The notes below the pieces were generated by a model that was given only the letters and a program-made list of their open reading frames with translations, did not search any database and was not told where the DNA came from. From NCBI GenBank assembly GCA_000091205.1, contig AP006493.2: DNA of 64,000 nt. The stretch is one strand, 5' to 3'. Both the position numbers and the translations under genes were made by a program. The DNA comes from Cyanidioschyzon merolae. Taxonomy: Eukaryota. Each line of letters starts with the position of its first letter. Positions within the stretch are counted from its first letter, which is position 1. Positions 13,434-64,000 of the stretch are shown here, in pieces.

Positions 13434-15770
13434 ATGTGTGGCATATTTGCCTATGTGGTCTACGGAGTGGAGCGCTCCCGAGACGACATCGCTGCAGTGC
13501 TGGTGAACGGGTTACGGCGCTTAGAGTACCGTGGCTACGACTCGGCTGGGATCGCGTTGGACGATATTGTAAATCCTTCAACTGGCGAGCGTAAGCCTTT
13601 GGTGATCAAAGGACCTGGCAGCGTGGGCTGTCTGGCGGAACAAGTAGCAACGGCGTTGCGCTCGAGTCCGAACTTCAAGGTCAGGCAGCACGTGGGTCTG
13701 GCGCATACGCGTTGGGCAACGCACGGCGCCCCCAGCGTCGAGAATAGTCATCCACAGGCTTCGGGACCTGAAAACGAGTTTCTCGTGGTGCATAATGGAA
13801 TAATCACCAACTATGCTGCGCTGAAGCAGGTTCTCGGGAAACGCGGCTACCAGTTTGTCTCGGAAACTGACACCGAAGTCGTTGCAGTGCTTCTGAAACA
13901 CCTCTATCTAGAGATGAAAGCTGTGTGCGATACAGTCTCTTTCCCAAGGCTCGTGATGCTCATGATGCACGAACTGGAAGGAGCGTATGCGTTAGCGATT
14001 CGATCACAGTTCTTTCCTGGCGAGCTGGTTGCGTGCAAGCGTGGTTCTCCACTCGTGCTCGGGATCGCGTACCATGACGGCGAACAGGTACACCTCGTCC
14101 AGCACAGCGAGCCGGCAAAAACTGATGCTTCAAGATCGCCAGCATCGACACCAGGTGCAGTGGAGAGCGAAGGAACGACGCGAGCGGCGATGTCCGCAGC
14201 AGAAACGGCGACCGCGAATGGACGCTTTGAATCCTCTGCTGTGGCCGCTGCCCGACAACGTGACGGACTAGAACCGGCATCTTCAGGCAGCGTCGCCAAG
14301 AGTACTGGAGGTAGGTGCTTCCGTCGCCGGACCCCGCGTCGCCACTCGATCGATTTCAAAGTCGCACAAGTGAATCTCGACTGTGAACTGCCGCACGGAT
14401 TCAGCTTCAATACTAGTACATCGGCACCGGACTCAGGAATGGGCGAAAGAGCGGGGGGTGTAGAGCTCTTTTTTGCATCAGATGTGAGCGCACTTGTGGA
14501 ACATACCCGTGAAGTGGTTGTGCTTGAAGATAACGATGTCGTCCATGCCAGCGCAGACGGATCGGTGGATATCTTTTCTTTTCTAGATGCGGAATCGCAG
14601 TCGCTGTTGACGCAAACACGTGCGCTTTGTACACTTGATATAGAGTTGGAACAGATTGAACGTGGTCGCTTCGAGCATTTTATGCTGAAAGAGATCTTTG
14701 AACAGCCTGAGAGCATCCGAGGAACAATGCGCGGCCGCGTGCAACCCGCGACGGGAACTGTACTGCTCGGTGGCTTACGCGAACGCCTCGATGACCTTGT
14801 TCGCAGTAACCGCTTGATATTTGTGGGTTGTGGAACCAGCTACCATGCGGCACTTGCATGTCGGCAACTTGTCGAACAGCTGACCGAACTTCCCGTCTCC
14901 GTGGAGCTGTCCAGCGATTTTTTGGATCGCGCTTGTCCGCTCTTTCGCTCCGACGTTTGCGTTTTCGTAAGCCAATCCGGGGAGACGGCAGACACCCTTG
15001 AGGCACTCCGGTACGCCAAACGACGACATGCACTAACAGTCGGTGTTGTCAACGTCGTCGGGTCTGCTATCGCCCGCATAACGGATTGCGGTGTCCACCT
15101 GAATGCGGGTTGCGAGATTGGAGTCGCATCCACGAAATCGTATACTTCGCAGATCGTCGCTATTATTATGATCGCGCTTTTGCTGAGCGCTGATCGTTTG
15201 AGCAAGCAAACTCGGCGAAGAGAGATTATTGACGGACTTGCCGCGTTGCCAACCGCAATTGAACGGGTGCTGATGCTGAATGATAAGTTGAGAATGTTGG
15301 CTGTAGGGGTCTTGCGGGACGCGGTATCCATTCTAGTGTGCGGTCGTGGGTACCAGTACGCTACGTGTCTTGAGGCAGCACTCAAAATCAAAGAGGTCAG
15401 TTATATTCACACCGAGGGTATTCACGCAGGCGAACTGAAGCATGGACCCCTGGCTCTAATCGATCAGGAAATGCCAATGATAGTCTTTGCGACTCGCGAT
15501 AACGGCTATGAGGCGATCTGTAACGCGGTGCACCAGCTTCTGGCGCGTGGAAACCCACAGCGCATGATTGTTGTATGCAGCGAGGGCGACGGCCATTTCT
15601 TTCAGGGCTTAGGTGTTGGTACCACGCTTGAAGTTCCGCACACTGCAGACTGCCTCCAAGGTGTCGTGAACATCGTTCCAATGCAGTTGATTGCCTATCA
15701 TCTCGCAGTTGCGCGAGGTTTAAATGTGGATCAACCACGCAATTTGGCGAAATCGGTTACGGTGCAATAG
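13434..15770 (+). CDS. glutamine--fructose-6-phosphate aminotransferase [isomerizing] (GFAT / GlmS-type)
   Basis: The true start is the internal Met at 13434 ('MCGIFAY', the catalytic Cys2 of class-II glutamine amidotransferases). The track ORF begins upstream at 13335. Two SIS domains are present, with the C-terminus '...LAVARGLNVDQPRNLAKSVTVQ' typical of GlmS. A ~100-aa low-complexity linker insert is typical of eukaryotic GFAT. Confidence 0.9.
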   Translation: MCGIFAYVVYGVERSRDDIAAVLVNGLRRLEYRGYDSAGIALDDIVNPSTGERKPLVIKGPGSVGCLAEQVATALRSSPNFKVRQHVGLAHTRWATHGAPSVENSHPQASGPENEFLVVHNGIITNYAALKQVLGKRGYQFVSETDTEVVAVLLKHLYLEMKAVCDTVSFPRLVMLMMHELEGAYALAIRSQFFPGELVACKRGSPLVLGIAYHDGEQVHLVQHSEPAKTDASRSPASTPGAVESEGTTRAAMSAAETATANGRFESSAVAAARQRDGLEPASSGSVAKSTGGRCFRRRTPRRHSIDFKVAQVNLDCELPHGFSFNTSTSAPDSGMGERAGGVELFFASDVSALVEHTREVVVLEDNDVVHASADGSVDIFSFLDAESQSLLTQTRALCTLDIELEQIERGRFEHFMLKEIFEQPESIRGTMRGRVQPATGTVLLGGLRERLDDLVRSNRLIFVGCGTSYHAALACRQLVEQLTELPVSVELSSDFLDRACPLFRSDVCVFVSQSGETADTLEALRYAKRRHALTVGVVNVVGSAIARITDCGVHLNAGCEIGVASTKSYTSQIVAIIMIALLLSADRLSKQTRRREIIDGLAALPTAIERVLMLNDKLRMLAVGVLRDAVSILVCGRGYQYATCLEAALKIKEVSYIHTEGIHAGELKHGPLALIDQEMPMIVFATRDNGYEAICNAVHQLLARGNPQRMIVVCSEGDGHFFQGLGVGTTLEVPHTADCLQGVVNIVPMQLIAYHLAVARGLNVDQPRNLAKSVTVQ

Positions 15771-15904
15771 ACTTAAAGTTCTACAGTGCGGGAAAATCGT
15801 TCTGCTGCCACTGCTGCCGATCGACTAGATCCATGTCTGTATGGAAGGAAACGGATGCACTCGAGTAACTGGGGTGTACAAACTGAAGTTTAAGCGTCAA
15901 GTCA

Positions 15905-18900
15905 ATGTCACGAAAGCCATCCCATGGCAGCTTTTGCTGCGGCTGATCGCTTTTCCTCTCTCTTAGCTCCGGGCTGGAATACGCCGGTCTCTACTTTCTT
16001 TCCAGCACTGTTGTAGGCTGTCGAGGGATGCTAATCGCGGCGTTGGGGTCGCAGTTTCACAGGTTCCGGCAGTTGCCTGCGTATTCGATGTACAGGCGGA
16101 GGTTGCGATTGACGGATCGCTTGCCGTTTTCTTCGTTTCCTAGAATTCAGTACTGGTGCGCGCCTCGTAGCGGTTAACCTGGTTGTGTTCAGATATTCCC
16201 GTATGTGTTCACGAGCTCGCATTCCCTGGGAGCCGACCTGCAGCATGCGAGCGCTTGCTGCATCCCTCCGTAGCTGTCGTTGACGGGTACAGAAGGCTCT
16301 ACGCGATGCCTTGCTCCGTTTTCGCGCCCAGTGCTGTGCCCCGTGATCATGCACTTGCTCTTCTGGACGACTTCTTGTGCGAGTGCGCTGCCCGCTGCAC
16401 TCGCAAGCGCACGCTATTCCATTCGGTACCTCAACAACCGATTCCTTGTGCGCTCTTGCTTTCCTGCGTTCCCTTCCCACAAACTGTGCAGATGAGCGTG
16501 ACGGGCCATCAGGTCCGATTGTGCCACATGCTTGTGATAATGCCGCCAAGGCTACTGGGACTCTCTCCTGTCTCACTCGTTTGCGCGTCGGACGAGTGCC
16601 TCACTCGCTCACCGTCCGCTTAGGCGAACATATGAGGTACTCGAGTCCAAGCTACGACTTTGAGCGGGAATCGGCGTGTTCGAGACTCGCGGCTCCAGTG
16701 CGTCGTCGGTGACCACAGGCAAGTCGGGCATCCCTTCGGATCTCGCAATCATCGTGAAGGTTCAGGGACCCGGTCTCTTTGGGTCCAAGTTGAGGCCGAT
16801 CGCATTGGGGAGCAAGTTCGCGCCGCCGCGCATCCCAGTTGTTCGTTGTTCATCCACACATTTCCCCCTCTAACCAGGGTGCATCTGCACCCTGACGATT
16901 CTTCAGTCGTATAGAGCGTTCGCGCTTGACGGCGATGGACACACTCGCGCTATCGGAAGCGAACGACGACTCTACTTCTCCTGTTGGAAGCGCGAAGCTC
17001 CGGTTCCTCCGGTCTCCCTTCGCCTCCGCGCCCTCCTGCGCGCTCCGTCGCTTCTCGCTCGTCAAGCGGTTCATGAGTTTCTTCGAATCTTCGGGTGCGG
17101 GCGCATAGTTCGCTGTCTGGGCTTGCACCTAGCGATCAGCCTCTCTTCCTCTTCCTCGACACACTTGTTCTCCATCGGACGCATCTGCGTAACCCTCGCG
17201 CGGCGTCACGATCCACGACAAAGCGAAAAAGTGTGCTTGCTGGCAGTGCCACGAGCCACGGAGACGTGCGTTCGTAAAAGCCGCGTACTCCTCCCCTGAC
17301 GGAGGCTCTGGACCGGCACGCTGGGTGCAGACGCGCCATCGCATTCGTGGGTGCGTTAGTCGCATGCGACAGGTCCATCTTCGAGACAACGTCCTCGTCG
17401 CGAAGGGCCAGATGACGGACATTCATCATGGTCTCCCAATCCTTCGAGCCGACTGGCTGCAATGAAGCGTCGGTCATGAAGAGCTCCTTCATACCGCCCA
17501 TGCCGGTCGCCGAGTCGTCGCACTTTCGCCTCCACCCCATAGAATCTTTCACGTGCCGGTGGAGGTGTATGCTCACCCTTCTCAGCGTCACTGTGCGTAT
17601 CATTCCCCGTACCCATTCGTATTATCTGGGGCGCTTTGAGTCACCAAGCGAGAGAGGCCCTCGACGCTCCCAATGCTGTCCAGCTTGGGAGCCGACGTCC
17701 GTGCGTCGCCGATGAAGGCTAGTTGCGGGTCAAGTCTGCCTGGTGCGCACTCGGGGACAACTAGGACGAAAAGCTTATCGGTGTCAGCTGCGCTTCTACA
17801 AAGTGCTGGACGTTTCCAAAGACCTCGGCACACTCGAAGCACGCGGACTTGAGTTTGAGGCAAGCGTGTCGCCGGAGCTTGCTGCAAAGAACCACCAGGT
17901 ACATGTCGCGTGCCACGTGTTCCGGTGGGAGCACGCACGTTCCAAGCTGGCACTGAACGACCGCCGTTTCCGGCAGTAACGATGAGCGCCGCTCCTCGTC
18001 CGTGAACACACCCAAGCGAAGCGTTCCGTTCAGGAAACCGCCCCGTCCGAGACTGGCGAGCTCGTCTGGAAGCGGTACGCATCTCTTTTCGTTACGCTCT
18101 TGGACGATTTTCGTCCAACTACACAGTCGTTTCTCTGAGACCTCTCGTGTGCGGCGGTTGTGTGCCTCCGTCGATAAGCATGCCGTATAACTAAAGTATT
18201 TATACCTTGTTTTTCTCTTCGTACTACTTCGGAATTCCACGAACCGCAATCGTCAGCGAGTTTCCCTATACAAACTCCAACAGGTCCATTGGTCTGAACG
18301 GCAGTTCCTCGAGCACTGGGCATCAGTTCGTGTCGAGAGCGAGCCGCGTTATCCCGAAGCGTGCATCGGCCTCTCTGAGGCTGCGTTTGACGGCCCCGCA
18401 ACCGTTCTCCATCGGTTTGAAACACAGAGCATAAGCTGGTGTGTGCGTGTGCAGGATGACCAATGCCCGCTCTTTGCTGTTTGCCGAATAGAAGGGAATT
18501 CGTGGAACGCGTTGCTGTCTATGATGAAACACGCAGTGGCTGGAGTGGAACTCCAGATTCGCGACGCAGCGTAGAAACGTCGATCCGTCGGCGCTCCTGC
18601 CGTGCCGCTAAGCGATGACGCACTTGCCACCGGAATCCATCGCTGCGATGACTGCAGTCCGCGTCCAGCACCCTTTCCCATGCGAACAGAAGAGACGCGA
18701 GCCTCTGGGAGCGGATCCCACGGGCGGGAATGTGGTTGTGGTGGTGGTGCTGCTGCTCCTGCTGCTGCTGCTGATTTCGGGTCCCTTCTCTTCGATGGCC
18801 ACGGAGCGGGCTGGAATTGTCTTTCGGGCGGGATCGATTGCTTAACGTGACGAGCTCATTGAGCTTTCGGCGGGAGCGTGTGGAGAAGTCACCAAGGGAT

Positions 18901-19293
18901 GGCGCCGCGCTCCTTTTCTCGTCGGGTCGGCAGCGCGAATCGTTGCGCCTACGAGTTGCGTCGCGACTGAAATGACGAAAACTCGAAGAATACGTGATTC
19001 GAGCGTGATAGACGTAAGGAAAGGAGGAGCGTGGCGGTCACTCACATGAACAGGACGGTGATATCGAATATTTTTTTGAAATCTTTTTTTAGGACGCCGC
19101 ATTTCGTCTTGATTCCAGAGCCGTAACGAGCTGCAGTTGTGAAGCATTGAACGAGCCATTGCGAAAAGACAACCTAGAGTCGGAGAACGGACCGTGAATC
19201 CGAAATTCCTTATTATTGGACTTTGAACGTCTAGGATGTGTATCTATAAATTTTCAGGAGGAAATTGAAAGATAGAAACATGTCGAACCGCTT
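15905..19293. repeat. inverted-repeat arm A (~3.39 kb), ~99% identical to the reverse complement of 26708..30100; non-coding dispersed element
   Basis: Every ORF in this arm has a mirror-image twin on the opposite strand of the other arm, with 0-2 aa differences (for example 17136..17603(-) versus 28403..28870(+)). Boundaries were found by direct comparison of the reverse-complement sequence. It contains a (GTG/GCT)n microsatellite at ~18722-18790. The longest ORF is 181 aa, basic, with no domain. Confidence 0.9.
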
Positions 19294-19945
19294 AGTGCTT
19301 TATTTCCAGATGACGCGAACGTTGGAATGCGCAGTGCAGCGCACGGAGAGCCGCGCCTGCGCACCGATTGCCTGCTGCGCTCGGTGACGTGTCTAGCACG
19401 CATCGCGCTCTTTGCACGCATCTCGGCGCATGCGTGTAACATAACATTTGCACGCTTGTTGTTGCGTAAAACTTCCGTTTTAAAGTTGTTTTTCTATTTT
19501 TGGAGTTCCTTGCTTGGGCGATGCGTTGCTCTGAACATGAAAAACTGGCAAGAATTTCAGGTATTTTGGTCGACCCACGTTTATCGCGAACGTGGGTCAC
19601 GAAACGCTCGCGACGAGTGCGTGGTACGGCCCGAGGTAACGTGCGACACAGAACGTACAGCAGTGGTGTGTTGCACTGGTTTGGTTGAGTTGTTTCGGCA
19701 ATTTCTGTCCTTAATCGTTTGCGCCAGGCATCTCGGGCCTCTTGGCGTCTATCTTTAGAAATATGCTTTCACACGGGAAACTGAACTTCGCTTGAACAAA
19801 AACAGCGCTTTCAATGCTGAAAAAGCTGCTCGAGGCGCTTTGCTTTGTTTCCTCGGTACCTCGGTAAGATTTTCTTATCCTTAGACTAGTTCACCCAAAC
19901 TTCATGGTGGTTGCTGGCTGGGGGCCGATCATCTTTCAAGGCGGA

Positions 19946-21229
19946 CTACGAGTCTTTCCTTGTCACTGGATTCATACCTGTTACGGAATTGCCGCCGCCG
20001 CTGCCCATTGGGCCGCCAGAGTTTTGCCCACCGAGGCCACCTCCAGTACCAGATCCGCTAGACATATCCGGTGCGTTCGGACGGGTCGGTGGTGCTTGCG
20101 TTTGCGGTGGTGGTGGTGGTGTAGGCTGCTTCGGTGGCGCCAATATGGGAGCCTGTGGTGCTGTAGGCCCATCCCCATTCATCATTTGTTGCCCATTTCT
20201 GGGGCCGTTGCCGCCACCGCTGCCTATTGATCCGCCAGAGTTTTGCCCACCGAGGCCACCTCCAGTACCGGATCCGCTAGACATATCCGGTGCGTTCGGA
20301 CGGGTCGGTGGTGCTTGCGTTTGCGGTGGTGGTGGTGGTGTAGGCTGCTTCGGTGGCGCCAATATGGGAGCCTGTGGTGCTGTAGGCCCATCCCCATTCA
20401 TCATTTGTTGCCCATTTCTGGGGCCGTTGCCGCCACCGCTGCCTATTTGTGCGCCAGAGTTTTGCCCACCGAGGCCACCTCCAGTACCAGATCCGCTAGA
20501 CCCGTCCAGCAGATTTGGCTGAGGCTGTGGTGTGTGCTGATGTGGTGGTGGTGTTGGCGGCTTCGGTTGCGTTGGTGTTGGAGCCTGTGGCGCTGTAGCC
20601 CCGTTCTCATTCATCATTTGTTGCCCATTTCTGGGGCCGTTGCCGCCACCGCTGCCTATTTGTGCGCCAGAGTTTTGCCCACCGAGGCCACCTCCAGTAC
20701 CAGATCCGCTAGACCCGTCCAGCAGATTTGGCTGAGGCTGTGGTGTGTGCTGATGTGGTGGTGGTGTTGGCGGCTTCGGTTGCGTTGGTGTTGGAGCCTG
20801 TGGCGCTGTAGCCCCGTTCTCATTCATCATTTGTTGCCCATTTCTGGGGCCGTTGCCGCCACCGCTGCCTATTTGTGCGCCAGAGTTTTGCCCACCGAGG
20901 CCACCTCCAGTACCAGATCCGCTAGACCCGTCCAGCAGATTTGGCTGAGGCTGTGGTGTGTGCTGATGTGGTGGTGGTGTTGGCGGCTTCGGTTGCGTTG
21001 GTGTTGGAGCCTGTGGCGCTGTAGCCCCGTTCTCATTCATCATTTGTTGCCCATTTCTGGGGCCGTTGCCGCCACCGCTGCCTATTTGTGCGCCAGAGTT
21101 TTGCCCACCGAGGCCACCTCCAGTACCAGATCCGCTAGACCCGTCCAGCAGATTCGGCTGAGGCTGTGGTGTGTGCCGATGTGGTGGTGGTGTCGGCGGC
21201 TCCGTAGTCGGTGTAGGCGGCTTAGTCAT
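19946..21229 (-). CDS. mucin-like glycoprotein, C-terminal repetitive part (Gly/Pro/Gln-rich 71-73-aa repeats), likely a continuation of 21222..22382
   Basis: Begins 'MTKPPTPTTEPPTPPP', which continues the PT repeat. It then carries ~5.5 copies of the unit 'GSSGSGTGGGLGGQNSG.QIGSGGGNGPRNGQQMMN..G.TAPQAP...PPTPPP'. Confidence 0.55.
   Translation of the reverse strand: MTKPPTPTTEPPTPPPHRHTPQPQPNLLDGSSGSGTGGGLGGQNSGAQIGSGGGNGPRNGQQMMNENGATAPQAPTPTQPKPPTPPPHQHTPQPQPNLLDGSSGSGTGGGLGGQNSGAQIGSGGGNGPRNGQQMMNENGATAPQAPTPTQPKPPTPPPHQHTPQPQPNLLDGSSGSGTGGGLGGQNSGAQIGSGGGNGPRNGQQMMNENGATAPQAPTPTQPKPPTPPPHQHTPQPQPNLLDGSSGSGTGGGLGGQNSGAQIGSGGGNGPRNGQQMMNGDGPTAPQAPILAPPKQPTPPPPPQTQAPPTRPNAPDMSSGSGTGGGLGGQNSGGSIGSGGGNGPRNGQQMMNGDGPTAPQAPILAPPKQPTPPPPPQTQAPPTRPNAPDMSSGSGTGGGLGGQNSGGPMGSGGGNSVTGMNPVTRKDS
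20016..21170. repeat. tandem minisatellite, unit 213-219 bp, ~5.5 copies (coding)
   Basis: 'ctccagtacc' recurs at 20041 and 20260 (219-bp spacing) and at 213-bp spacing further downstream. There are two unit subtypes. Confidence 0.85.
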
Positions 21230-21595
21230 TGGCGTTGGCGGCTCCGTAGTCGGTGTTGGCGGCTTCGTAGTCGGCGTTGGCGGCTTCGTAGTCGGTGTCG
21301 GCGGCTTCGTAGTCGGCGTTGTCGTGCCTAGTCGTCGGTGTCGGCGGCTTAGTAGTCGGCGTAGGCGGCTTAGTAGTCGGTGTAGGCGGCTTAGTAGTCG
21401 GCGTAGGCGGCTTAGTAGTCGGCGTAGGCGGCTTAGTAGTCGGCGTAGGCGGCTTAGTAGTCGGTGTAGGCGGCTTCGTAGTCGGTGTAGGCGGCTTAGT
21501 AGTTGGCGTCGGCGGCTTCGTAGTCGGTGTAGGCGGCTTAGTCGTCGGTGTTGGCGGCTTAGTCGTTGGCGTCGGCGGCTTAGTCGTCGGCGTTA
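21190..21595. repeat. tandem repeat, 21-bp unit (ggcggcttNgtagtcggYgtN), ~19 copies, encoding (PTTKPPT)n on the minus strand
   Basis: Direct reading of the sequence. The antisense frames give the spurious 'VGVGGLVVG' and 'RRLSSRRRRLSS' ORFs. Confidence 0.9.
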
Positions 21596-25701: not shown

Positions 25702-26707
25702 CCTGTATAGCCCCCTTGAGGTTGTTGAAGAACAACAATATTATTTTGAATATTTCCGGACGAAATTCTTTTTTGAGTGCTATGCACGGGGATGATGCAC
25801 GGATTCGCGCATCTGCGGACAGCGATTTTCCCGCCAACTTCAATTTCGCGAACGATTGATTACGTTCGCGCCAAATCGAACCGCTGCGCACCATACGATT
25901 GCGACGCTCGTATCCTTAAACATGCTGGAACGCTAGTCGCGCAAGCTCAGCTTTCCCGGGCAGTTATGCGAATTAAAACAGTTCCGACACGCTTTGGATA
26001 GAGTACCATTAGTCTTGTCACGTTGCAATAACGACTTGAGGCGTAAAACATGGATCATTGTAGCGGGGTGCTACCCTCGAGCGTCGGCGCCAGAGTAAGC
26101 CTCTGATCCTGAATAGGGTGTACAAGAGAAGATGCGAGCTCGCAAGTGCGAAGTAGCCAGTTCTATTGCACGTCGCAGATGCGTCCAGCGTGTGCGAATT
26201 GTCGATCGGGCAAGAGGGCAGGCGTCATAGCGACCGCATACGGATATTCGAAATCTATAGGGCATCGGTTCCGACCTGCTTTGGTATATAGATATTTTGA
26301 ACTTCTGCATGTACGTTATTTGGCGTATACACTGAAGACTTCTGTCGTGGAAAATTTTAAACCTCGTACGCTTAGGCTTGCGTCTCTCAAATCGGTGTGG
26401 CGAGGTGAAGGCCTCAAATAAATGTAGGTTTACGCATTCTTTTGCTCAACAAGGACCTGGCATCCAAATCATTAATTTCATATATTGAGAAATTTCTCAG
26501 AGAATGTATGTGAACGCCTCGCCCTATTGCCTTAAAAGACAGCTATTTGGCGACATGTCGTATGCGTGTTAACGAGGCGCTGAATATTGACAGCGCAAGA
26601 TCGCCTGCCAGAGCACCACAGGACTCTAGATATCCGAATCTAAAGTGCAATTTCTACTCAGTATAAAGAGCATTGGTGCAGTCTCTAAAGAAACTAGTTA
26701 TGATGGA

Positions 26708-29700
26708 GCACTAAGCTGTTCGACATGTTTCTATCTCTCCATTTCCTCCTGAAAATTTATAGATACACATCCTAGACGTTCAAAGTCCAATAATAAGGAA
26801 TTTCGGATTCACGGTCCGTTCTCCGACTCTAGGTTGTCGTTTCGCAATGGCTCGTTCAATGCTTCACAACTGCAGTTCGTTACGTCTCTGGAATCAAGAC
26901 GAAATGCGGCGTCCTAAAAAAAGATTTCAAAAAAATATTCGATATCACCGTCCTGTTCGTGTGAGCGACCCCCACGCTCCTCCTTTCCTTACGTCTATCA
27001 CGCTCGAATCACGTATTCTTCGAGTTTTCGTCATTTCAGTCGCGACGCAACTCGTAGGCGCAACGATTCGCGCTGCTGACCCGACGAGAAAAGGAGCGCG
27101 GCGCCATCCCTTGGTGACTTCTCCACACGCTCCCGCCGAAAGCTCAATGAGCTCGTCACGTTAAGCAATCGATCCCGCCCGAAAGACAATTCCAGCCCGC
27201 TCCGTGGCCATCGAAGAGAAGGGACCCGAAATCAGCAGCAGCAGCAGGAGCAGCAGCACCACCACCACAACCACATTCCCGCCCGTGGGATCCGCTCCCA
27301 GAGGCTCGCGTCTCTTCTGTTCGCATGGGAAAGGGTGCTGGACGCGGACTGCAGTCATCGCAGCGATGGATTCCGGTGGCAAGTGCGTCATCGCTTAGCG
27401 GCACGGCAGGAGCGCCGACGGATCGACGTTTCTACGCTGCGTCGCGAATCTGGAGTTCCACTCCAGCCACTGCGTGTTTCATCATAGACAGCAACGCGTT
27501 CCACGAATTCCCTTCTATTCGGCAAACAGCAAAGAGCGGGCATTGGTCATCCTGCACACGCACACACCAGCTTATGCTCTGTGTTTCAAACCGATGGAGA
27601 ACGGTTGCGGGGCCGTCAAACGCAGCCTCAGAGAGGCCGATGCACGCTTCGGGATAACGCGGCTCGCTCTCGACACGAACTGATGCCCGGTGCTCTAGGA
27701 ACTGCCGTTCAGACCAATGGACCTGTTGGAGTTTGTATAGGGAAACTCGCTGACGATTGCGGTTCGTGGAATTCCGAAGTCGTACGAAGAGAAAAACAAG
27801 GTATAAATACTTTAGTTATACGGCATGCTTATCGACGGAGGCACACAACCGCCGCACACGAGAGGTCTCAGAGAAACGACTGTGTAGTTAGACGAAAATC
27901 GTCCAAGAGCGTAACGAAAAGAGATGCGTACCGCTTCCAGACGAGCTCGCCAGTCTCGGACGGGGCGGTTTCCTGAACGGAACGCTTCGCTTGGGTGTGT
28001 TCACGGACGAGGAGCGGCGCTCATCGTTACTGCCGGAAACGGCGGTCGTTCAGTGCCAGCTTGGAACGTGCGTGCTCCCACCGGAACACGTGGCACGCGA
28101 CATGTACCTGGTGGTTCTTTGCAGCAAGCTCCGGCGACACGCTTGCCTCAAACTCAAGTCCGCGTGCTTCGAGTGTGCCGAGGTCTTTGGAAACGTCCAG
28201 CACTTTGTAGAAGCGCAGCTGACACCGATAAGCTTTTCGTCCTAGTTGTCCCCGAGTGCGCACCAGGCAGACTTGACCCGCAACTAGCCTTCATCGGCGA
28301 CGCACGGACGTCGGCTCCCAAGCTGGACAGCATTGGGAGCGTCGAGGGCCTCTCTCGCTTGGTGACTCAAAGCGCCCCAGATAATACGAATGGGTACGGG
28401 GAATGATACGCACAGTGACGCTGAGAAGGGTGAGCATACACCTCCACCGGCACGTGAAAGATTCTATGGGGTGGAGGCGAAAGTGCGACGACTCGGCGAC
28501 CGGCATGGGCGGTATGAAGGAGCTCTTCATGACCGACGCTTCGTTGCAGCCAGTCGGCTCGAAGGATTGCGAGACCATGATGAATGTCCGTCATCTGGCC
28601 CTTCGCGACGAGGACGTTGTCTCGAAGATGGACCTGTCGCACGCGACTAACGCACCCACGAATGCGATGGCGCGTCTGCACCCAGCGTGCCGGTCCAGAG
28701 CCTCCGTCAGGGGAGGAGTACGCGGCTTTTACGAACGCACGTCTCCGTGGCTCGTGCCACTGCCAGCAAGCACACTTTTTCGCTTTGTCGTGGATCGTGA
28801 CGCCGCGCGAGGGTTACGCAGATGCGTCCGATGGAGAACAAGTGTGTCGAGGAAGAGGAAGAGAGGCTGATCGCTAGGTGCAAGCCCAGACAGCGAACTA
28901 TGCGCCCGCACCCGAAGATTCGAGGAAACTCATGAACCGCTTGACGAGCGAGAAGCGACGGAGCGCGCAGGAGGGCGCGGAGGCGAAGGGAGACCGGAGG
29001 AACCGGAGCTTCGCGCTTCCAACAGGAGAAGTAGAGTCGTCGTTCGCTTCCGATAGCGCGAGCGTGTCCATCGCCGTCAAGCGCGAACGCTCTATACGAT
29101 TGAAGAATCGTCAGGGCGCCGATGCACCCTGGTTAGAGGGGAAAATGTGCGGATGAACAACGAACAACTGGGATGCGCGGCGGCGCGAACTTGCTCCCCA
29201 ATGCGATCGGCCTCAACTTGGACCCAAAGAGATCGGGTTCCTGAACCTTCACGATGATTGCGAGATCCGAAGGGATGCCCGACTTGCCTGTGGTCACCGA
29301 CGACGCACTGGAGCCGCGAGTCTCGAACACGCCGATTCCCGCTCAAAGTCGTAGCTTGGACTCGAGTACCTCATATGTTCGCCTAAGCGGACGGTGAGCG
29401 AGTGAGGCACTCGTCCGACGCGCAAACGAGTGAGACAGGAGAGAGTCCCAGTAGCCTTGGCGGCATTATCACAAGCAGGTGGCACAATCGGACCTGATGG
29501 CCCGTCACGCTCATCTGCACAGTTTGTGGGAAGGGAACGCAGGAAAGCAAGAGCGCACAAGGAATCGGTTGTTGAGGTACCGAATGGAATAGCGTGCGCT
29601 TGCGAGTGCAGCGGGCAGCGCACGCGCACAAGAAGTCGTCCAGAAGAGCAAGTGCATGATCACGGGGCACAGCACTGGGCGCGAAAACGGAGCAAGGCAT

Positions 29701-30100
29701 CGCGTAGAGCCTTCTGTACCCGTCAACGACAGCTACGGAGGGATGCAGCAAGCGCTCGCATGCTGCAGGTCGGCTCCCAGGGAATGCGAGCTCGTGAACA
29801 CATACGGGAATATCTGAACACAATCAGGTTAACCGCTTTGAAGCGCGCACCAGCACTGAATTCTAGGAAACGAAGAAAACGGCAAGCGATCCGTAAATCG
29901 CAACCTCCGCCTGCACATCGAATACGCAGGCAACTGCCGGAACCTGTGAAACTGCGACCCCAACGCCGCGATTAGCATCCCTCGACAGCCTACAACAGTG
30001 CTGGAAAGAAAGTAGCGACCGGCGTGTTCCAGCCCGGAGCTAAGAGAGAGGAAAAGCGATCAGCCGCAGCAAAAGCTCCCATGGGATGGCTTTCATGACT
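26708..30100. repeat. inverted-repeat arm B (~3.39 kb), reverse complement of 15905..19293
   Basis: See arm A. The mirrored ORF set (26847..27164, 27156..27404, 27924..28406, 29430..29975 and others) matches it. Microsatellite at ~27232-27290. Confidence 0.9.
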
Positions 30101-30645
30101 GAGGGAAGAGATGCGAGCTTTGCAGAGCTAGCCCTAGCTGGCTGGTCCGTTCCATTTCTGTCTAGTTTTGGAAGTAGCAAGTCGGTGGAGCGCTAGGGAT
30201 CAGAGTTCGCCAGAGTGACCGCCTCCAGAGATGCAGAAACGCCGACCTTTAACTTGTTCTTGGTGTTGCTTAAAGGAATGTTTCACCTAATCCGGATTAT
30301 ACACGATATCATGACTGCTTGATAGCAAGAACGCCAGTGCATTCCCTACCGCATTACACGTGGGGTTTCTCGGTGGTGTTGGAGAAGCAGTCTACCGATG
30401 AAGGCGGACCTCATTGCGACTAGATTCTTATCGTAACGGAATGACAATTTTCTCATATCTTTCGCTGATCGTACATCATGAAGAGAAGCAAAATAAGATG
30501 AAAACTTCCGCAGAAGCACATAGATGACGGATACCATGAAGGAAATAACCGCACGAAAAATGACGCATGCGGGCGGCGTCACCCGTGCCAGCGCGCCCCC
30601 GGCATCGCGCCTTCGACATGGAGCGATTCTCTCCACGGTTGGACG

Positions 30646-44232: not shown

Positions 44233-45549
44233 GGAATCGCCTTTAGGGCTACACTCAACAGATTGGTCGCTTGTCTCTTCTTCATGAACAGCATTTCGCT
44301 ATTATATGCGTGGCAACAGGCAGGCCAACGATTGCTCCCGAATGAGATCTAATCGAGTCAGACGAGCCCCTGTCGCTCCTGTACTGAGCATTCGCGTTTC
44401 AATATAGAATCGTTAGTGTATTCTTCAATGCACGACGGTCCCTGATGGAAGCAGGTATTTTCGTTTTACAGGCATTCTGTAAATCTCTGTTCTAATTATA
44501 AAAGAAGCACCTCGCTGCGGGAATGGATGAATGCGACCAAGCTGCATGGACGCTCCATGTCGACTGATGGTTCGCTGAAGACAGATAGGGAGCCTCTTCG
44601 TGCCCTCTACAGCACAGACTGCAACTTACAGCCATGTGCTGTATTTTCGGTGTACCAGACTACGAGGCACAGCGCCCTGGATCCCTGGTCGATGCGTCCG
44701 AGCAGCGCCTGCTCAACAGCTCCGTACCCGTGCGAAACCTGGCTTGCTAGCACGTCCTGTGCTGCCCAAACTAGACGCTAGCCGAGCGGTGCTGAACACT
44801 TCAAGGAGCACTCGTTGCCTCGCAGGAAGCATGCGCTCGGACAGCAACGGTGATGGAATACGAGCTACTCGGACTCGTTCGCGGGCTTGGATCTAGAGCC
44901 CTGCACGTCGAAGAGTAGCAACCCATGCGGCCTTCTCATGTGGAAACCAAACTCCTGGAGCGGTGATTTCGTTTCCGTCTATAGAGACGGAACTTGGAAG
45001 AGGTCTGTGTTTCCCGGCGCAGTGATTATGGCATGGTGGAACCAAGAGAAGCGACAACTACTCCACTTCCCGATTAAAATCAAACACTGGATTGCGCGCT
45101 ATGCTCATGCCTTTGTGCTTTTTTTCGAACCGTTTCTAGATGCGAACTCTCTGTGCAGTCGAAGGAGAGTAACATGGTCTGGCTGTCTCATACATAGTTG
45201 CAGCATTCCCGGTTGTATTTTCGGAGTGGCACCTTCGGAGCTGTGCCCTTGAAATTCGATACGTCACCGGATTCAAGATCATTCGCGAGGCTGTCGAAAC
45301 AGGGATCGTCAAACAAGCGACTTGATCATTCAGTTCATACGGATAACGCTCCGTTCTTTTCCTTGCCTTACTTGAGGCACGCTCCAATCACCCACTCTTC
45401 AACTTCACTAACTTTCTGTTTTAAACCGATTCGTGGGCATAGCAAGTGGCGCCGTTGGGCACTCAACGAAGACTACTTGACGTCATTTATTGAGGACCTA
45501 TTCTCACGCCCGTGCCGAACGTGTATTGAATTTCTAATTTCAGATCATC

Positions 45550-46150
45550 AATTTCGTTCTAAAGGAAAATTCGTCTCTCTTTATGGTCATGGATAATGCG
45601 GCATTCGACGGCAGCCTGATTCCTCTCCTGGGGGCATGCGCTCACAGACTCCCGTCGCTTCTGTTTGCATGAAAATGGGCCTTGGACTCGGAATCGAGTA
45701 GTCGCAGCGATCGCATCGAGCGGAGATAGTGTCAGCAATTGCACGAAGAGCGCGTAGACGGGTCTGCATTGCCTCGACTTATTCCCCAGCCTGGAGTTTC
45801 CATCTGGTAGTGATTCATTATGGACGAAATCTCGTTCCACACACACGCTATCGAATGGAACAGCGTGCGCTTGCGTGTGCAGCGGACAGAGCGCTTGCCA
45901 CGGCGATCGACTAGAAAAAGTCCGTGATCGTAGTGTACGCGGCCAGGCGCAGAAACGGAAGAGGCATCCACCGGAGCCTTCTGTACTCGTCAAGAGCGTC
46001 TACAAAGCAATGAAGCAATCCTTCATGCACCTCAAGACGGCCCTCGATTGATGAGTTGTGTTGAATGCATACGGGAACACCTGGCCTATGCCAAATGTCA
46101 TCCCTGGGAAGGACGTTCTGAGGCCGTCCATAAACAAGGTGAAAATGTTA
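45550..46150 (-). repeat. internally deleted, diverged (~70-75% identity) copy of the inverted-repeat arm element
   Basis: Reverse complement of 45855-46080 matches arm A 16200-16440 (for example 'ccgctgcac.cgcaagcgcacgct.ttccattcg', 'ttcccgtatg..ttca'; peptide 'CPLHTQAHAVPF' versus 'CPLHSQAHAIPF'). 45610-45690 matches arm A 18640-18720 ('IAATTRFRVQGPFSCKQKRRE' versus 'IAAMTAVRVQHPFPCEQKRRE'). The two blocks are ~200 bp apart here versus 2.3 kb in the arms. Confidence 0.6.
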
Positions 46151-46579
46151 AGTGAATCGTAGATCGCAACTTTCGCCTGCGTATGAAGTGCTTCGACTGC
46201 AGCCGGAAGCTGTGTAAACAGGTCTTGTACGCTGCCACCGACATCCTTCTGCTACTGACAATGGAGCTGGACGGAGACACTGGTGTACTCAAGGCCGAAG
46301 ATGAGGGAAAGGGAGAGCAAAAAAGTCGCAGCCAGAGCCTCCAAACGCTGTTTTTGATGGCAATGGAAACAGACCCAAACTTTAGCTTGTATGCCCGTGT
46401 TCTGTGACCTGCCCTATATTTTTCTGACATGCGGTTTAGATGCAAAGGGCCAATGTTCGGTGTGTACGAATCGCTGTACTGCAAATGTGACTGAAAGAAA
46501 AACCAAGCGCGCTTCGAATGCGTTCTAACACGTGCTCATAGTCTCTGGTATGTATCCCCTCAACCGTGGACACTGTTCA

Positions 46580-61520: not shown

Positions 61521-63649
61521 ATCTAGCCAACTGGGTCCCGAAGACGCTCTCTTTCTCTCGCGAAAGCGCGTGGAAACTGTTTCGATCCGAGGCCAGGCCC
61601 CAACAAGCTGACTTGATGGAAGCTCAGATTTCGCTCCTCCAAACTGCTCTACGCCTCAAAGAGGTCGTGTTCGGTCTATCCACGGCGTGTCGAGACGGGC
61701 TGCACGGTCCCTCGGTGAGAGTCGAAACACCAGCGGCTTCGAGGCACTTCGCGTCCCCGCTCAGCGTCGTTCGCACTAGTGAGCGCCACGCACTCGTCGG
61801 CTCTGCGCTCACCAAAGGTGCGACGCGCTAGCCCCCCTGAAACACCGGAATACCTGAACCAATACCGTTGCTGAGGACAGCTGTGGATGAAGCGACAAGC
61901 CTCGCGCGGCTCTTGGTAAGAAAGTTTTTCGCGTGCAGCGCTGCGCCCGGCGTCCCCGAGCCAGAACGCTACGTGTGATCTTGGCGCCGAATCGCACCGA
62001 TCGGCACTGGACCTCAGAGCAACTGCCACAGCTGCCTGCTACACGAGTCCTCGACCAGGATCGATGCAGCGTAGGCGATCAGCAGTGTGTGTATTTGATT
62101 GTTTGCCTGCTTGCGATATCATTGGGTGGTGGTATGATTCCTGAATAGTACTGACTTCCAGAATCGGTAATCAAGCTAGATGCAGCATAGACGATCAGCA
62201 GTAGCTGTATGGTTGCTTGCCGGCTTGCTTGCCTGGAACACCATGGAACGCGGCATACTTCCGGTTCGATCATGAAGAATTGTCCTCGTAAATGTTCAGA
62301 GCATGCAATCGTTTCGCGATCACGAATTTTGCTGCGCAAGGGCTTCAGAGGATGTCGGCGTGCTCGCGATATCAGCGCGGTATCGGACGCTCGTGTGGGA
62401 TGCGAACTGCTTTGGCGCATCTCTTGGCCAACAATTTCAGATTGGCGCCTCTGACGCAAGCCAGCAGCGCATGGGTAAGTAGAAAAGATGCTTCAGATAC
62501 GGGGTATTTTCGGACAATGCCAGTGCGACACTTTTCACAGAGGTCTGGTTTGGCGTGCGAATGAAACGAGTTTCGGGTGTTCCGTCATCAAGCAGGCGCC
62601 TGCAGACCGCCATTGACACTGTATTCGAGTGCGCGTTTTCAGGTACTGCAAGCCGCACGAATGCTACGTGAGACGCGCCGCTGCGTCGAGCCGCACCGTC
62701 TCCCCCGACACAGCGCCCTGAATACAGCGAGTCGTATCGTAGGAAGCGGCGAATAGTTGCAGTGGATGCTACATCGCTTCAGATCAAACGTTCCAGATCA
62801 TCGAGGCAGCGTGGTGCACAGCTGGATTCCTGTAAACAGGGAAGAAACCTCCACAACGCGTTCGGGTATGGGATGCGCTTCTGGCGTGCGCTATGGACAG
62901 TTCAGGCAGGCCATGGAAAAGGGCTTGGCATCACGCGCACCCAGCAGCGTCAATTCACAACGACGCAGTTTGTCACGAGATGGCTGCTATGTTGACACTC
63001 GGCGCTGCGACGATATCGCTTCCATTTCATTTGCCATGCGGGGAATCGAGCAATGAGCGTCGCACTTGGCGGCGTGCTTCGCCGTCCGCAACGCGCAGCT
63101 ACCGCAGCTCGAGCGCCCAAGCACACCGCAGACCAAAATGGAGCACTGAACTGCTCGATGTGCTTTAGCAGTTCGATTTCTTGGACATTTTTGAGGTGCA
63201 CAGCCTCGAAGTACAAAATTTCGCACTAGGGGCTTACAGGTTCATACTCCATTCAAGCATTCTCGGGCGTCTTGTCGATGCGGATGCTTCGATACATCGG
63301 CGATGGCATTCGTGATGCCGAGGAAGGCAAGACGATTCGCAAAGCCCTCGAACACGGCATCGTACAATAACTGAGATCGTTATCCAGTTCATGGCTGCAA
63401 GCTCTCGCGCTTCCCTTTCGCTACTTGAAGCATGCTCAACTCATGTAGTCTTCATGCGTAAGATCTTCCTGCCTCAAGGCAAATATTTCGTACAACAAAG
63501 CTCGTAGCTAGGTTTAAGAGGAAAAATACTCGAGGCTGTCCATTGAAGATATCTTCACAAGTTCATGCTGAAAGCGCGCTGAGCTTTTTCACTAAATAAC
63601 GATGATTCCGGTTGAAGAACACATCCGCTTTTCTCTGTGGCCATTGACG

Positions 63650-64000
63650 AGCATGCATGCAGTATCTGCTTGATTTACCTCATGAGATGCGCCGTCGGAG
63701 GCGTGCATCCATTCTGTTTGCGTGGAGAAGGGGTTTTTGGACTCGGACTGGAGTCATTGCAGCGATTGCCCCTGGTGGAGCGTGCTTCACGCCATTGCGC
63801 GAAGAAAGTACAGACAGATCGAAGTTTCTCGACTTGAACTCCAGTCTGGGTTTTCCTTCTGGTACTTGTTTCGTCATCAACAACATTGCGCTAAAGAAAT
63901 TGCTCTATAAAAAATGGAACAGCGCGCGCTTGCGATGCGGCAGACAAGGCACTCGCCGAGGGCACCGCCCAGAATAAGATCGTCGTCCTAGATGCCACAT
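63650..64000 (-). repeat. partial, diverged copy of the inverted-repeat arm element (truncated by the window end)
   Basis: 63720-63790 is the reverse complement of arm A ~18650-18700 ('ggcaatcgctgcaatgactccagtccgagtcc'; peptide 'IAAMTPVRVQKP'). 63905-63950 'aatggaacagcgcgcgcttgcgatgcgg' matches arm A ~16420-16460 'ccattcg...' and copy 45855-45900. The spacing is compressed in the same way as the 45.5-46.1-kb copy. Confidence 0.5.

What the first reader, a model, noticed from the sequence alone, without database searches (positions are those of the whole stretch)
15905..19293. IR arms are copies of a previously uncharacterised non-coding dispersed element with short deletion derivatives elsewhere in the window
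The arm sequence recurs, in minus orientation and at ~70-75% identity, at ~45550-46150 and ~63650-64000. In both diverged copies the two conserved blocks (arm positions ~+475 and ~+2750) are only ~200 bp apart instead of 2.3 kb. These are therefore internally deleted derivatives retaining the element ends, which is the hallmark of a transposable-element family with non-autonomous members. The full-length 3.4-kb copy encodes nothing recognisable (longest ORF 181 aa, basic, low complexity), and I see neither terminal inverted repeats nor LTRs at its ends. So the class is unclear: it could be a non-autonomous DNA element, a SINE/LARD-like retroelement or a Helitron-type element. Conserved short peptides across copies ('CPLH[ST]QAHA[IV]PF', 'IAAMT.VRVQ.PF.C.QKRRE') suggest constrained sequence such as protein-binding or structural-RNA sites.
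Basis: seen in the sequence. Interest (0 to 1): 0.55.

Follow-up and report, generated by a model that had tools for sequence, protein, structure and literature searches.

The report
Dead Fanzor-carrying mariner-type transposon copies

Summary
The window is Cyanidioschyzon merolae 10D chromosome 11.

The 3,393-nt arms are 98.8% identical. They recur weakly (72-82%) at 45.6-46.0 kb and 63.7-64.0 kb, and there the two conserved blocks lie close together.

**"Non-coding, no TIRs, class unclear" is wrong.**
- Intact relatives exist in metagenome contigs. There a 317-aa DDE_3 transposase sits 71 nt upstream of a 765-aa Fanzor, in at least 7 genomic contexts.
- The predicted structure of that Fanzor best matches solved SpuFz (E 6e-15).

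**The short copies are deletion derivatives.**
- They are about 1.35 kb, and the family counts 16 distinct copies in all (2 long, 14 short or partial).
- All copies carry stop codons and frameshifts and are only 54-60% alike.

**The 99% arm identity** starts and stops inside two otherwise diverged copies. This points to gene conversion.

**Novelty.** The family is distinct from CMe-1A, the only Fanzor family published for this alga. It is a new member of a known kind, of modest interest.

The parts
15831..19316 (-). Left long copy: a complete but dead Tc1/mariner+Fanzor element, about 3.49 kb including the TIRs
   Evidence: The family profile matches 15842-16428 and 18496-19305. TIR relics lie at both ends.
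19295..19316 (-). 5' TIR relic of the left copy (GCGTCATCTGGAAATAAAGCAC)
   Evidence: It aligns with the family 5' TIR consensus ..GTGTCAGATTAnAATGGAAC.
18362..19243 (-). Tc1/mariner-type (DDE_3) transposase pseudogene
   Evidence: The intact 317-aa DDE_3 transposase, residues 68-270, aligns to 19024-18362 (E 1e-14). The consensus transposase peptide, residues 1-223, aligns to 19243-18533 (E 6e-50). Relics of the D..D..E triad were read.
15874..18144 (-). Full-length Fanzor (TnpB-like) pseudogene with stop codons and frameshifts
   Evidence: P0182 residues 4-105, 133-186, 185-285 and 510-594, and P0126 residues 27-105, 134-186, 191-285 and 510-596, align colinearly (E 2e-24 and 4e-20). The C-terminal zinc-ribbon/RD region is at 16374-15874.
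16429..18495 (-). The 2,067-nt segment missing from all short copies. It holds the C-terminal part of the transposase, the intergenic stretch, and Fanzor residues ~1-537.
   Evidence: The profile jumps from position 475 to 478 across it. The protein alignment crosses 16428/16429 without a break. A CG(G/A) microhomology lies at both edges.
15831..15852 (-). 3' TIR relic of the left copy (GTTTCCTTCCATACAGACATGG)
26691..30167 (+). Right long copy: the same dead element in the opposite orientation, head-to-head with the left copy
   Evidence: The family profile matches 26699-27510 and 29578-30157. Protein matches mirror those of the left copy.
15907..19299 (.). High-identity (98.8%) tract of the left arm. 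It begins and ends inside the element.
   Evidence: Identity jumps from about 40% to about 99% at 15907 and at 19299. Outside these limits both arms still match the family profile and TIRs.
26707..30099 (.). High-identity tract of the right arm
45069..46431 (+). Short copy c2: the deletion derivative (~1.36 kb). It has both TIRs, a transposase N-terminal relic (45187-45924) and a Fanzor C-terminal relic (45855-46401).
   Evidence: The profile aligns over its full length at 46420-45072. tblastn hits are and the TIRs.
63124..64000 (+). Short copy c3, cut by the window end. It runs about 480 nt further in contig L015.
   Evidence: The profile aligns to 63131-63998. L015 12821-11466 holds the complete copy.

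Best explanation
**What it is.** The arms and the diverged copies belong to one very old, now dead family of Tc1/mariner-type DNA transposons in Cyanidioschyzon merolae.

**How the autonomous form worked.**
- It was about 3.4 kb long and bounded by ~22-nt terminal inverted repeats.
- It carried two genes on one strand: a ~320-aa DDE transposase, which cuts and pastes the element by binding the repeats, and directly downstream a ~750-aa Fanzor.
- Fanzor is the eukaryotic relative of TnpB, an RNA-guided nuclease. By analogy with TnpB, it probably helps the element persist by cutting empty sites.

**How the short form arose.** One internal deletion of 2,067 nt joined mid-transposase to Fanzor residue ~538 at a 2-3-nt microhomology. 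This produced a 1.35-kb non-autonomous derivative that kept both ends. It was then copied to many sites, presumably by transposase supplied in trans.

**What happened since.**
- All copies have decayed neutrally, to 54-60% pairwise identity over the whole unit, with stop codons and frameshifts in every copy.
- The two long copies lie head-to-head, 7.4 kb apart. They were later homogenised by gene conversion over 3,393 nt, which is why they look like a fresh 99% inverted repeat.

**Shown:** homology, gene order, TIRs, the shared deletion, the decay, and the limits of the identical tract.
**Inferred:** the transposition mechanism, mobilisation in trans, the role of Fanzor, and gene conversion as the cause of the arm identity.
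For: **Organism.** Exact protein matches to C. merolae 10D proteins BAM80534-BAM80547 on the 852,849-nt chromosome.

**Family.**
- A 22-nt core pattern found 27 metagenome stretches, forming 10 clusters.
- A profile search found further copies, giving 16 distinct copies in all.
- Similarity falls to background outside a ~1.35-kb unit.

**Coding origin.**
- The family consensus restores reading frames.
- Those frames hit Pfam Cas12f1-like_TNB (E 1e-6, 29.1 bits, above the 26.3 cut-off), DDE_3 (E 8e-6) and HTH_Tnp_Tc3_2 (E 2e-3), in the expected order.

**Intact relatives.**
- P0182 (765 aa) is preceded, 71 nt upstream on the same strand, by a 317-aa DDE_3 protein. This pair occurs in at least 7 different contexts with sharp ends compatible with a TA target duplication.
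- The consensus transposase matches that protein at 38% identity, E 1.7e-50. The consensus Fanzor C-terminal part matches P0182 at 39%, E 2e-34.
- The AlphaFold model of P0182 (pLDDT 75.7) best matches SpuFz 9cez/8gkh, E 6e-15, then PpFz, GtFz and Cas12f.
- The P0122/P0126 group aligns with the published C. merolae Fanzor1 CMe-1 (E 2e-8), with the IETDG, GxDPG and NRDFNAAINI motifs conserved.

**Long versus short form.**
- Fanzor residues 4-285 and 510-596 map colinearly onto 18132-16249, crossing the breakpoint.
- The Fanzor N-terminal part occurs nowhere else in the fetched loci.
- Short copies align through the junction as a single hit.

**TIRs.** Consensus 5' end GTGTCAGATTAnAATGGAAC; reverse complement of the 3' end CATGTCAGAATnAAATGGAAC.

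**Decay.** Stop codons in all copies, no codon periodicity (p = 0.14), and a star-like tree.

**Gene conversion.** Identity steps from about 40% to about 99% at 15907 and 19299. Both points lie inside elements whose outer ends each still match the family.
Against: - No copy in the window is intact, and the arm's own translations give no Pfam hit. Classification therefore rests on the consensus and on homology to intact relatives.
- DDE_3 on the consensus scores just below Pfam's cut-off (26.3 against 28.6 bits).
- The TA target-site duplication cannot be shown for the C. merolae copies, because their ends are too decayed.
- The TIRs of the intact relative are not similar in sequence to those of the C. 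merolae family.
- In the tree the arms do not sit outside the short copies. The order of events is therefore inferred from the shared breakpoint alone.
- One short copy (L007, 6203-5069) is aberrant after the core.
- The C. merolae genome itself could not be searched. Copy number comes from metagenome contigs of the same or a very close population.
Confidence: 0.88

Rival explanations
1. The short ~1.35-kb unit is the original element, and the arms carry an unrelated 2,067-nt insertion. This was my own first reading.
For: The profile alignment shows a clean break between adjacent positions 475 and 478 in the arm. Short similar motifs (TTCGGTA / GCCGAATA) at the two edges could pass for a target-site duplication. 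Only the arms have the segment.
Against: The segment is colinear with residues ~1-537 of the same protein whose residues 538-end lie next to it. A single protein alignment (P0126 510-596, P0182 510-594) crosses the edge at 16428/16429. The segment also supplies the missing C-terminal part of the transposase (residues 227-270). An insertion would not restore two genes in register.
Confidence: 0.02
2. This is a non-coding element of another class (a SINE/LARD-like retroelement, a Helitron or a MITE-like element), whose conserved blocks are protein-binding sites or a structured RNA.
For: No long ORF. No Pfam hit on the raw ORFs or on the arm's translations. The ends are not obvious in single copies.
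Against: The consensus restores transposase and Fanzor frames with Pfam hits. Homology to intact proteins is strong, E 1e-50 and 1e-34. TIRs are present. There is no Rfam match, no tRNA-like part, and no significant folding of the consensus 3' end (z = -1.33).
Confidence: 0.02
3. The arms are copies of CMe-1A, the Fanzor1 family already published for C. merolae (Bao & Jurka 2013).
For: Same organism and same kind of protein. CMe-1A is about 3.2 kb, old (about 80% to its consensus), and present in about 150 copies (PMC3627910).
Against: The CMe-1A consensus has no DNA match to the arms, c2 or c3. It matches other places in the window instead: 8742-8952, 9061-9280, 23810-23987 and 59248-59397. 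The CMe-1 protein gives no significant match to the arms and is only 24-28% identical to the arms' closest intact relatives. CMe-1A is described as lacking TIRs and a transposase.
Confidence: 0.02
4. The 99% identity of the arms comes from a recent inverted duplication of one 3.4-kb copy, not from gene conversion between two older copies.
For: Only 40 differences in 3,393 nt, with sharp limits to the repeat.
Against: Outside both limits, each arm carries its own diverged version of the element's last ~65 nt and ~15 nt, including TIR relics at the right distance. A duplication would have had to land exactly in register inside another copy, which amounts to recombination with it.
Confidence: 0.2
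5. The arms are remnants of an integrated giant-virus fragment rather than of a cellular transposon.
For: Two close intact relatives, P0122 and P0126, lie in contigs whose neighbouring genes look viral: a very large Peptidase_S74 protein, ATG8, a UvrD helicase and an RNA ligase. Bao & Jurka proposed that viruses spread Fanzors.
Against: The arms are bounded by TIRs and contain only the transposase and Fanzor. The neighbouring genes are ordinary cellular genes (GFAT, CMK168C). Those virus-like contigs lack the transposase and are not in IMG/VR. The family is dispersed as discrete 1.35-kb and 3.46-kb units.
Confidence: 0.03

Closest known systems
PUl-1 / PUl-2 of Pythium ultimum and PGv-1: Mariner-type elements carrying Fanzor1 (Bao & Jurka 2013, Mob DNA 4:12, PMC3627910)
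   Same: Same architecture and size: TIR, then a Mariner/Tc1-type DDE transposase, then Fanzor1 on the same strand, then TIR. PUl-1 is 3,620 bp with 24-bp TIRs and a TA target duplication. The C. merolae consensus transposase aligns colinearly with the PUl-1 transposase through the D, D and E positions (E 2e-4 to 7e-6 in a one-to-one comparison).
   Different: Only about 22-23% protein identity, and the TIR sequences are unrelated. The C. merolae copies are all dead. Most of them are a single deletion derivative, and a TA duplication cannot be shown.
CMe-1A and TE-N2_CMe, the published Fanzor1 family of C. merolae (PMC3627910)
   Same: Same genome. Both are old, multi-copy Fanzor1-bearing elements of about 3.2-3.5 kb, each with a short companion family. 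The proteins share the IETDG, GxDPG and NRDFNAAINI motifs.
   Different: No DNA similarity to the arms, and the proteins are only 24-28% identical to the arms' closest relatives. CMe-1A is reported to lack TIRs and a transposase, to be of unknown class, and to have some intact copies. The family here has TIRs and a DDE_3 transposase, and I saw no intact copy.
Uncultured-organism element in contigs L036-L043 (317-aa DDE_3 transposase plus the 765-aa Fanzor P0182)
   Same: The closest intact relative found. It has the same gene order and spacing and about the same length (~3.4 kb). Identity is 38-39% to the consensus proteins, E 1e-50 and 2e-34.
   Different: It is intact and evidently recently mobile, with identical proteins in at least 7 contexts. 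Its host DNA has 43% GC and the organism is unknown. Its TIR sequence differs (CTACAATCTTGTTATG...). Its 3' end folds well (z = -3.65), unlike the C. merolae consensus.
Spizellomyces punctatus Fanzor (SpuFz1; PDB 8GKH, 9CEZ; Saito et al. 2023, PMC10432273)
   Same: The predicted fold of the intact relative P0182 matches SpuFz best (E 6e-15, TM 0.48-0.60). Short copies that keep only the 3' end of the gene recall the "ghost loci" (omega RNA present, protein absent) noted in that paper.
   Different: About 15% sequence identity. The Spu-1 elements have no transposase between their repeats. Nuclease and guide-RNA activity are shown for SpuFz and are untested here.

Membership tests
Fanzor1 / TnpB-like RNA-guided nuclease (as a pseudogene) | The motif D-X(125-275)-[TS][TS]-x-x-C4 zinc finger-X(5-50)-RD (Bao & Jurka 2013) | tested here: met
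   Intact relatives have GLDPG (D433), then 179 residues, then TTQKC-HRC...CEHC...RNRD. The C. merolae consensus keeps TTVKCHRC...CMKC...RNRE/DFNAAINI. The arm keeps the relics LDPKR and NCDPNAAISI.
Fanzor1 / TnpB-like RNA-guided nuclease (as a pseudogene) | Pfam PF07282 (OrfB_Zn_ribbon / Cas12f1-like TNB domain) | tested here: met
   The consensus peptide scores E 1.1e-6 and 29.1 bits, above the 26.3 cut-off. Several full-length relatives carry the precomputed hit. The arm's own translation gives no hit.
Fanzor1 / TnpB-like RNA-guided nuclease (as a pseudogene) | Fanzor fold (WED/REC plus a split RuvC with a zinc-ribbon insertion) | tested here: met
   Tested on the intact relative P0182 only. 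The AlphaFold model has pLDDT 75.7. The top PDB matches are SpuFz 9cez/9ceu/8gkh (E 6e-15 to 3e-14), PpFz and GtFz, then Cas12o, Cas12f and TnpB.
Fanzor1 / TnpB-like RNA-guided nuclease (as a pseudogene) | An omega RNA encoded at the 3' end of the gene and the element end, with guide-dependent DNA cleavage | tested here: inconclusive
   The 3' 260 nt of the C. merolae consensus folds no better than shuffles (z = -1.33). The intact relative's 3' 250 nt does (z = -3.65). Rfam has no match. Activity cannot be tested with these tools.
Tc1/mariner (IS630-Tc1-mariner) DNA transposon | A DDE/D transposase of the DDE_3 type with an N-terminal helix-turn-helix | tested here: met
   The consensus scores DDE_3 E 7.7e-6 (26.3 bits, just under the 28.6 cut-off) and HTH_Tnp_Tc3_2 E 2e-3. 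It also aligns over residues 1-227 (38%, E 1.7e-50) with a 317-aa protein that has the PF13358 hit, and colinearly with the PUl-1 Mariner transposase.
Tc1/mariner (IS630-Tc1-mariner) DNA transposon | Terminal inverted repeats | tested here: met
   The consensus of the 5' ends and the reverse complement of the 3' ends share (R)TGTCAGAWTnAAATGGAAC, about 19 of 21 positions. Relics are present in all four window copies.
Tc1/mariner (IS630-Tc1-mariner) DNA transposon | A TA target-site duplication | tested here: inconclusive
   TA or TAAA adjoins the repeat at about 5 of 13 readable ends in the C. merolae copies, too decayed to decide. In the intact relative all ends are compatible with TA (C-TA-element-TA-G/T/A).
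Non-autonomous internal-deletion derivative | Both element ends are kept, an internal coding part is missing, and copies at different sites share the same breakpoint | tested here: met
   Short copies align to the profile as single hits across the junction. Their flanks are unrelated. The missing part is present and colinear in the arms. One aberrant copy (L007, 6203-5069) is noted.
CMe-1A (published C. merolae Fanzor1 family) | DNA similarity to the 3,169-bp CMe-1A consensus | tested here: not met
   blastn of the published consensus against the window and all loci gives no match in the arms, c2 or c3. The matches lie elsewhere.

The most novel reading that the evidence does not exclude
The short copies are not just debris. 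By keeping exactly the Fanzor 3' end and the element terminus, the region where Fanzor/TnpB guide (omega) RNAs are encoded, they could have acted as "ghost" guide-RNA loci, or could still do so. In that role they would be served in trans by a Fanzor protein, for example one of the CMe-1A copies reported as intact. Their spread would then partly reflect RNA-guided cutting and copying rather than DDE transposition alone. A related possibility is that the 99%-identical, 3.4-kb head-to-head arms let the 7.4-kb spacer, with its two repeat-protein genes, flip by homologous recombination. The cell population would then hold two isomers.
Probability: 0.05. Interest if true: 0.6.

Novelty: new member of a known kind. 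Interest (0 to 1): 0.3.

Why it matters
- **A second Fanzor family for C. merolae.** This small, nearly intron-free model genome gets a second Fanzor-bearing transposon family. Unlike the published CMe-1A, this one can be assigned a class: a Tc1/mariner transposase partner and TIRs.
- **Unannotated sequence explained.** The reference record annotates nothing in the arms. This result accounts for that sequence and for the 14-kb palindrome as gene conversion between old transposon copies.
- **A practical lesson.** Very decayed coding relics can look non-coding in single copies. They became readable only in the family consensus, and on the other strand.
- **A useful by-product.** The work turned up an intact, apparently recently mobile mariner+Fanzor element in uncultured organisms, with a well-folding 3' region. 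This is a candidate for people who study or engineer Fanzor nucleases.
- **Limits.** Nothing here changes what is known about how such elements work.

Tried and rejected
1. **Rfam and tRNA scans** of the whole window found nothing.
2. **Pfam on raw ORFs** of the arm, and on frame-stitched arm translations, found nothing.
3. **Paralogous gene family with a long intron in the arm.** Rejected: no conserved open frame in any copy and no three-base periodicity.
4. **Solo LTRs of the nearby reverse-transcriptase element.** Rejected: no similarity to 9-13 kb, and neighbouring copies in L007 are as diverged as any other pair.
5. **A 2,067-nt insertion in the arm.** I held this view, then reversed it once colinearity with intact Fanzor proteins was seen.
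6. **Other copies of the 2,067-nt segment** in the fetched loci, searched by blastn, tblastx and tblastn: none.
7. **PDB sequence searches** with P0122 and with a profile gave no hit. The fold search was needed.
8. **IMG/VR scan** for P0126 found no relative.
9. **The sister species** (GFAT 77% identical; L001-L005): no trace of the element in the 0.6-2.8 kb available downstream of GFAT. A weak tblastx hit was not reproduced.
10. **Organism of the intact element:** exact look-ups gave no names.
11. **Literature search** for other names of this family found only Bao & Jurka 2013. Repbase could not be consulted.
Full report
**Where the window comes from.** Six to nine window ORFs are exact matches to proteins of Cyanidioschyzon merolae strain 10D. 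They run from BAM80534 to BAM80547 on an 852,849-nt record, chromosome 11 with CMK locus tags. GFAT (13434-15767) is BAM80537. CMK168C is 21225-22382(-) and CMK170C is 24628-25701(-). No gene of the NCBI record lies in the arms. JGI metagenome contigs 98.5-99.8% identical to the window show that the same or a very close population is present in public metagenomes.

**Checking the observation.**
- The inverted repeat is real: 15907-19299 against 26707-30099, 3,393 nt with 40 mismatches.
- The weak minus-strand recurrences are also real. Arm 374-522 matches 45849-45993 (72%) and arm 2733-2813 matches 45633-45711 (75%). Arm 2710-2799 matches 63698-63789 (73%) and arm 473-517 matches 63913-63956 (82%).
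- The two diverged copies align with each other. Both core motifs occur four times, against about 0.01 expected.

**Finding the family.**
- An exact scan of metagenome contigs with the 22-nt core of block A returned 27 stretches. These form 10 clusters, three of which are the window's own loci.
- A DNA profile then found more copies in the same contigs, often clustered and in both orientations. I count 16 distinct copies: 2 long and 14 short or partial.
- Similarity between copies covers a unit of about 1.35 kb and drops to background on both sides. The copies therefore have unrelated flanks. This is a dispersed family, not a segmental duplication.
- Over the whole unit, copies are only 54-60% identical, and the tree is star-like.

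**What the unit is.**
- No copy has a long conserved open frame, and substitutions show no three-base periodicity (p = 0.14). The copies are therefore evolving neutrally.
- In Pfam these frames hit Cas12f1-like_TNB, the TnpB/Fanzor zinc ribbon (E 1.1e-6, 29.1 bits, cut-off 26.3). Upstream of it they hit DDE_3 (E 7.7e-6, 26.3 bits, just under the cut-off) and HTH_Tnp_Tc3_2 (E 2e-3).
- tblastn with the consensus peptides shows the same order, with stop codons and frameshifts, in every copy.
Block B is the DDE_3 core (...WTRTVIAAIASGG...). The quoted peptides are wrong-strand translations of these.

**Intact relatives.**
- Profile searches of the large protein collection found full-length relatives.
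- P0182 (765 aa) is encoded in at least 7 different sequence contexts. It is always 71 nt downstream of a 317-aa protein with a DDE_3 hit, on the same strand. The ~3.4-kb unit has sharp ends compatible with a TA duplication.
- The C. merolae consensus transposase aligns to that protein over residues 1-227 (38%, E 1.7e-50). The consensus Fanzor part aligns to P0182 residues 541-756 (39%, E 2e-34).
- An AlphaFold model of P0182 (21-sequence alignment, pLDDT 75.7) best matches the solved Spizellomyces Fanzor structures (9cez, 9ceu, 8gkh; E 6e-15 to 3e-14). Parasitella and Guillardia Fanzors follow, and only then Cas12o, Cas12f and TnpB.
- The group also aligns with CMe-1, the Fanzor1 protein that Bao & Jurka (2013, PMC3627910) described from C. 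merolae. The IETDG, GxDPG and NRDFNAAINI motifs are conserved.

**Long form versus short form.**
- The profile shows that the arm matches the unit in two pieces: positions 3-475 at 15950-16428 and positions 478-1120 at 18496-19181. Between them lie 2,067 extra nucleotides.
- I first read this as an insertion. That reading is wrong.
- P0126 and P0182 align colinearly with the minus strand of the left arm: residues 4-105 at 18132-17827, 133-186 at 17767-17609, 185-285 at 17618-17316, and 510-596 at 16512-16249. The last alignment crosses 16428/16429 without a break.
- The intact transposase aligns to 19024-18362 through residue 270. This is beyond the point (~227-235) where the short copies stop.
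- The extra segment is therefore the missing end of the transposase gene plus the first ~537 codons of the Fanzor gene. The arms are the long, originally autonomous form, and the short copies carry a deletion.
- Short copies align through the junction in the same way. The junction shows a 2-3-nt microhomology (TTCGGTA at 16423-16429, GCCGAATA at 18484-18491). This fits one deletion event followed by amplification.
- The Fanzor N-terminal part occurs nowhere else in the fetched loci.

**Ends of the element.**
- Aligning all 5' ends and the reverse complements of all 3' ends gives two consensus sequences: GTGTCAGATTAnAATGGAAC and CATGTCAGAATnAAATGGAAC. This is a terminal inverted repeat of about 22 nt.
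- TA or TAAA adjoins the repeat at some ends, but decay prevents a firm call on target-site duplication.
- With the TIRs included, the window copies are about 15831-19316(-), 26691-30167(+), 45069-46431(+), and 63124 to beyond the window end (+).

**The inverted repeat itself.**
- Arm identity steps from about 40% to about 99% at 15907 and at 19299.
- Both steps lie inside the elements. Outside them, each arm continues for about 65 nt (3' end) and about 15 nt (5' end) with its own diverged version of the family sequence, including TIR relics at the proper distance.
- The simplest reading is gene conversion between two old head-to-head copies. It is not the fresh duplication of a 3.4-kb "element". 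I hold this sub-claim at about 0.7-0.8.

**Comparison with what is known.**
- Bao & Jurka (2013) list one Fanzor1 family for C. merolae. CMe-1A is 3,169 bp, has about 150 copies, and is reported to have no TIRs and to be of unknown class. It has a companion short family, TE-N2_CMe.
- I took their consensus from the supplement. It has no DNA match to the arms, c2 or c3, though it matches four other places in the window. This is therefore a different family.
- Its architecture is that of their Mariner-type Fanzor1 elements such as PUl-1 (3,620 bp, 24-bp TIRs, TA duplication). The PUl-1 transposase aligns colinearly with the consensus here.
- The function of Fanzor as an omega-RNA-guided nuclease is established for other members (PMC10432273) and is only inferred here.
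- The consensus 3' end shows no significant folding (z = -1.33). The intact relative's 3' end does (z = -3.65).

**Verdict.**
The claims of "non-coding", "no TIRs" and "class unclear" are wrong.
- What is there is an old, dead Tc1/mariner-type transposon family carrying a Fanzor gene, unannotated in the reference. It is a new member of a known kind.
- Interest is modest (0.3). The more useful by-product is the intact relative found in metagenomes.

Noticed in passing
window 8742-8952, 9061-9280, 23810-23987, 59248-59397: Fragments of the published C. merolae Fanzor1 element CMe-1A and its short companion TE-N2_CMe, 76-87% identical to the consensus. One lies inside the spacer between the arms. 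This explains the small inverted repeat 9060-9130 / 23918-23988.
   Followed up: partly
window 632-1582 (+): A third Fanzor-like relic. It is 27% identical to CMe-1 residues 373-698 (E 3e-29) and has several stop codons. Its N-terminal part is cut by the window start.
   Followed up: partly
window 42684-43094 (-) and 43957-44154 (-): Another dead transposase-plus-Fanzor pair next to short copy c2. It consists of a DDE_3 C-terminal relic (34% to the intact 317-aa transposase, E 1e-9) and a Fanzor relic (27% to CMe-1 residues 536-673). The 41-46.5 kb stretch is a transposon graveyard.
   Followed up: no
window 10758-12113 (-): An ORF with a reverse-transcriptase domain (RVT_1, E 1.6e-15). It lies in a 4.6-kb interval between the mitochondrial-carrier gene and GFAT. 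That interval is only about 1.9 kb in the sister species with 77%-identical GFAT, so this is probably a lineage-specific retroelement insertion.
   Followed up: no
window 19989-21201, 21195-21593, 24652-25000: Tandem repeats within the spacer between the arms: 213 nt x 5.6, 21 nt x 19 and 81 nt x 4.3. They lie in or next to the hypothetical genes CMK168C and CMK170C, so these are repeat-rich proteins of unknown function.
   Followed up: no
L036-L043 (e.g. L036 544-3866): An intact, multi-copy mariner-type element with a 317-aa DDE_3 transposase and a 765-aa Fanzor, in 43%-GC metagenome contigs of unknown organism. The proteins are identical in at least 7 contexts, and L036 holds two copies tail-to-tail. 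The 3' 250 nt folds far better than shuffles (z = -3.65), a candidate guide-RNA scaffold.
   Followed up: partly
L034 8001-10139 and L035 5569-7224: Two close intact relatives of the C. merolae relic Fanzor lie without a transposase in 56%-GC contigs. Their neighbours look like large-DNA-virus genes: a 2,625-aa Peptidase_S74 protein, ATG8, a UvrD helicase, an RNA ligase and 2H-SAK. The contigs are not in IMG/VR. This may hint at virus-host exchange of Fanzor genes in acidic hot springs.
   Followed up: partly
window 15831-30167: No metagenome contig spans a whole arm; assemblies break inside the arms. It therefore cannot be judged whether the 7.4-kb spacer exists in both orientations in natural populations.
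   Followed up: no
window 49750-50871 (-): A QueC (7-cyano-7-deazaguanine synthase) gene, annotated exsB in C. merolae. This is a bacterial-type queuosine-precursor enzyme in a eukaryotic nuclear genome.
   Followed up: no
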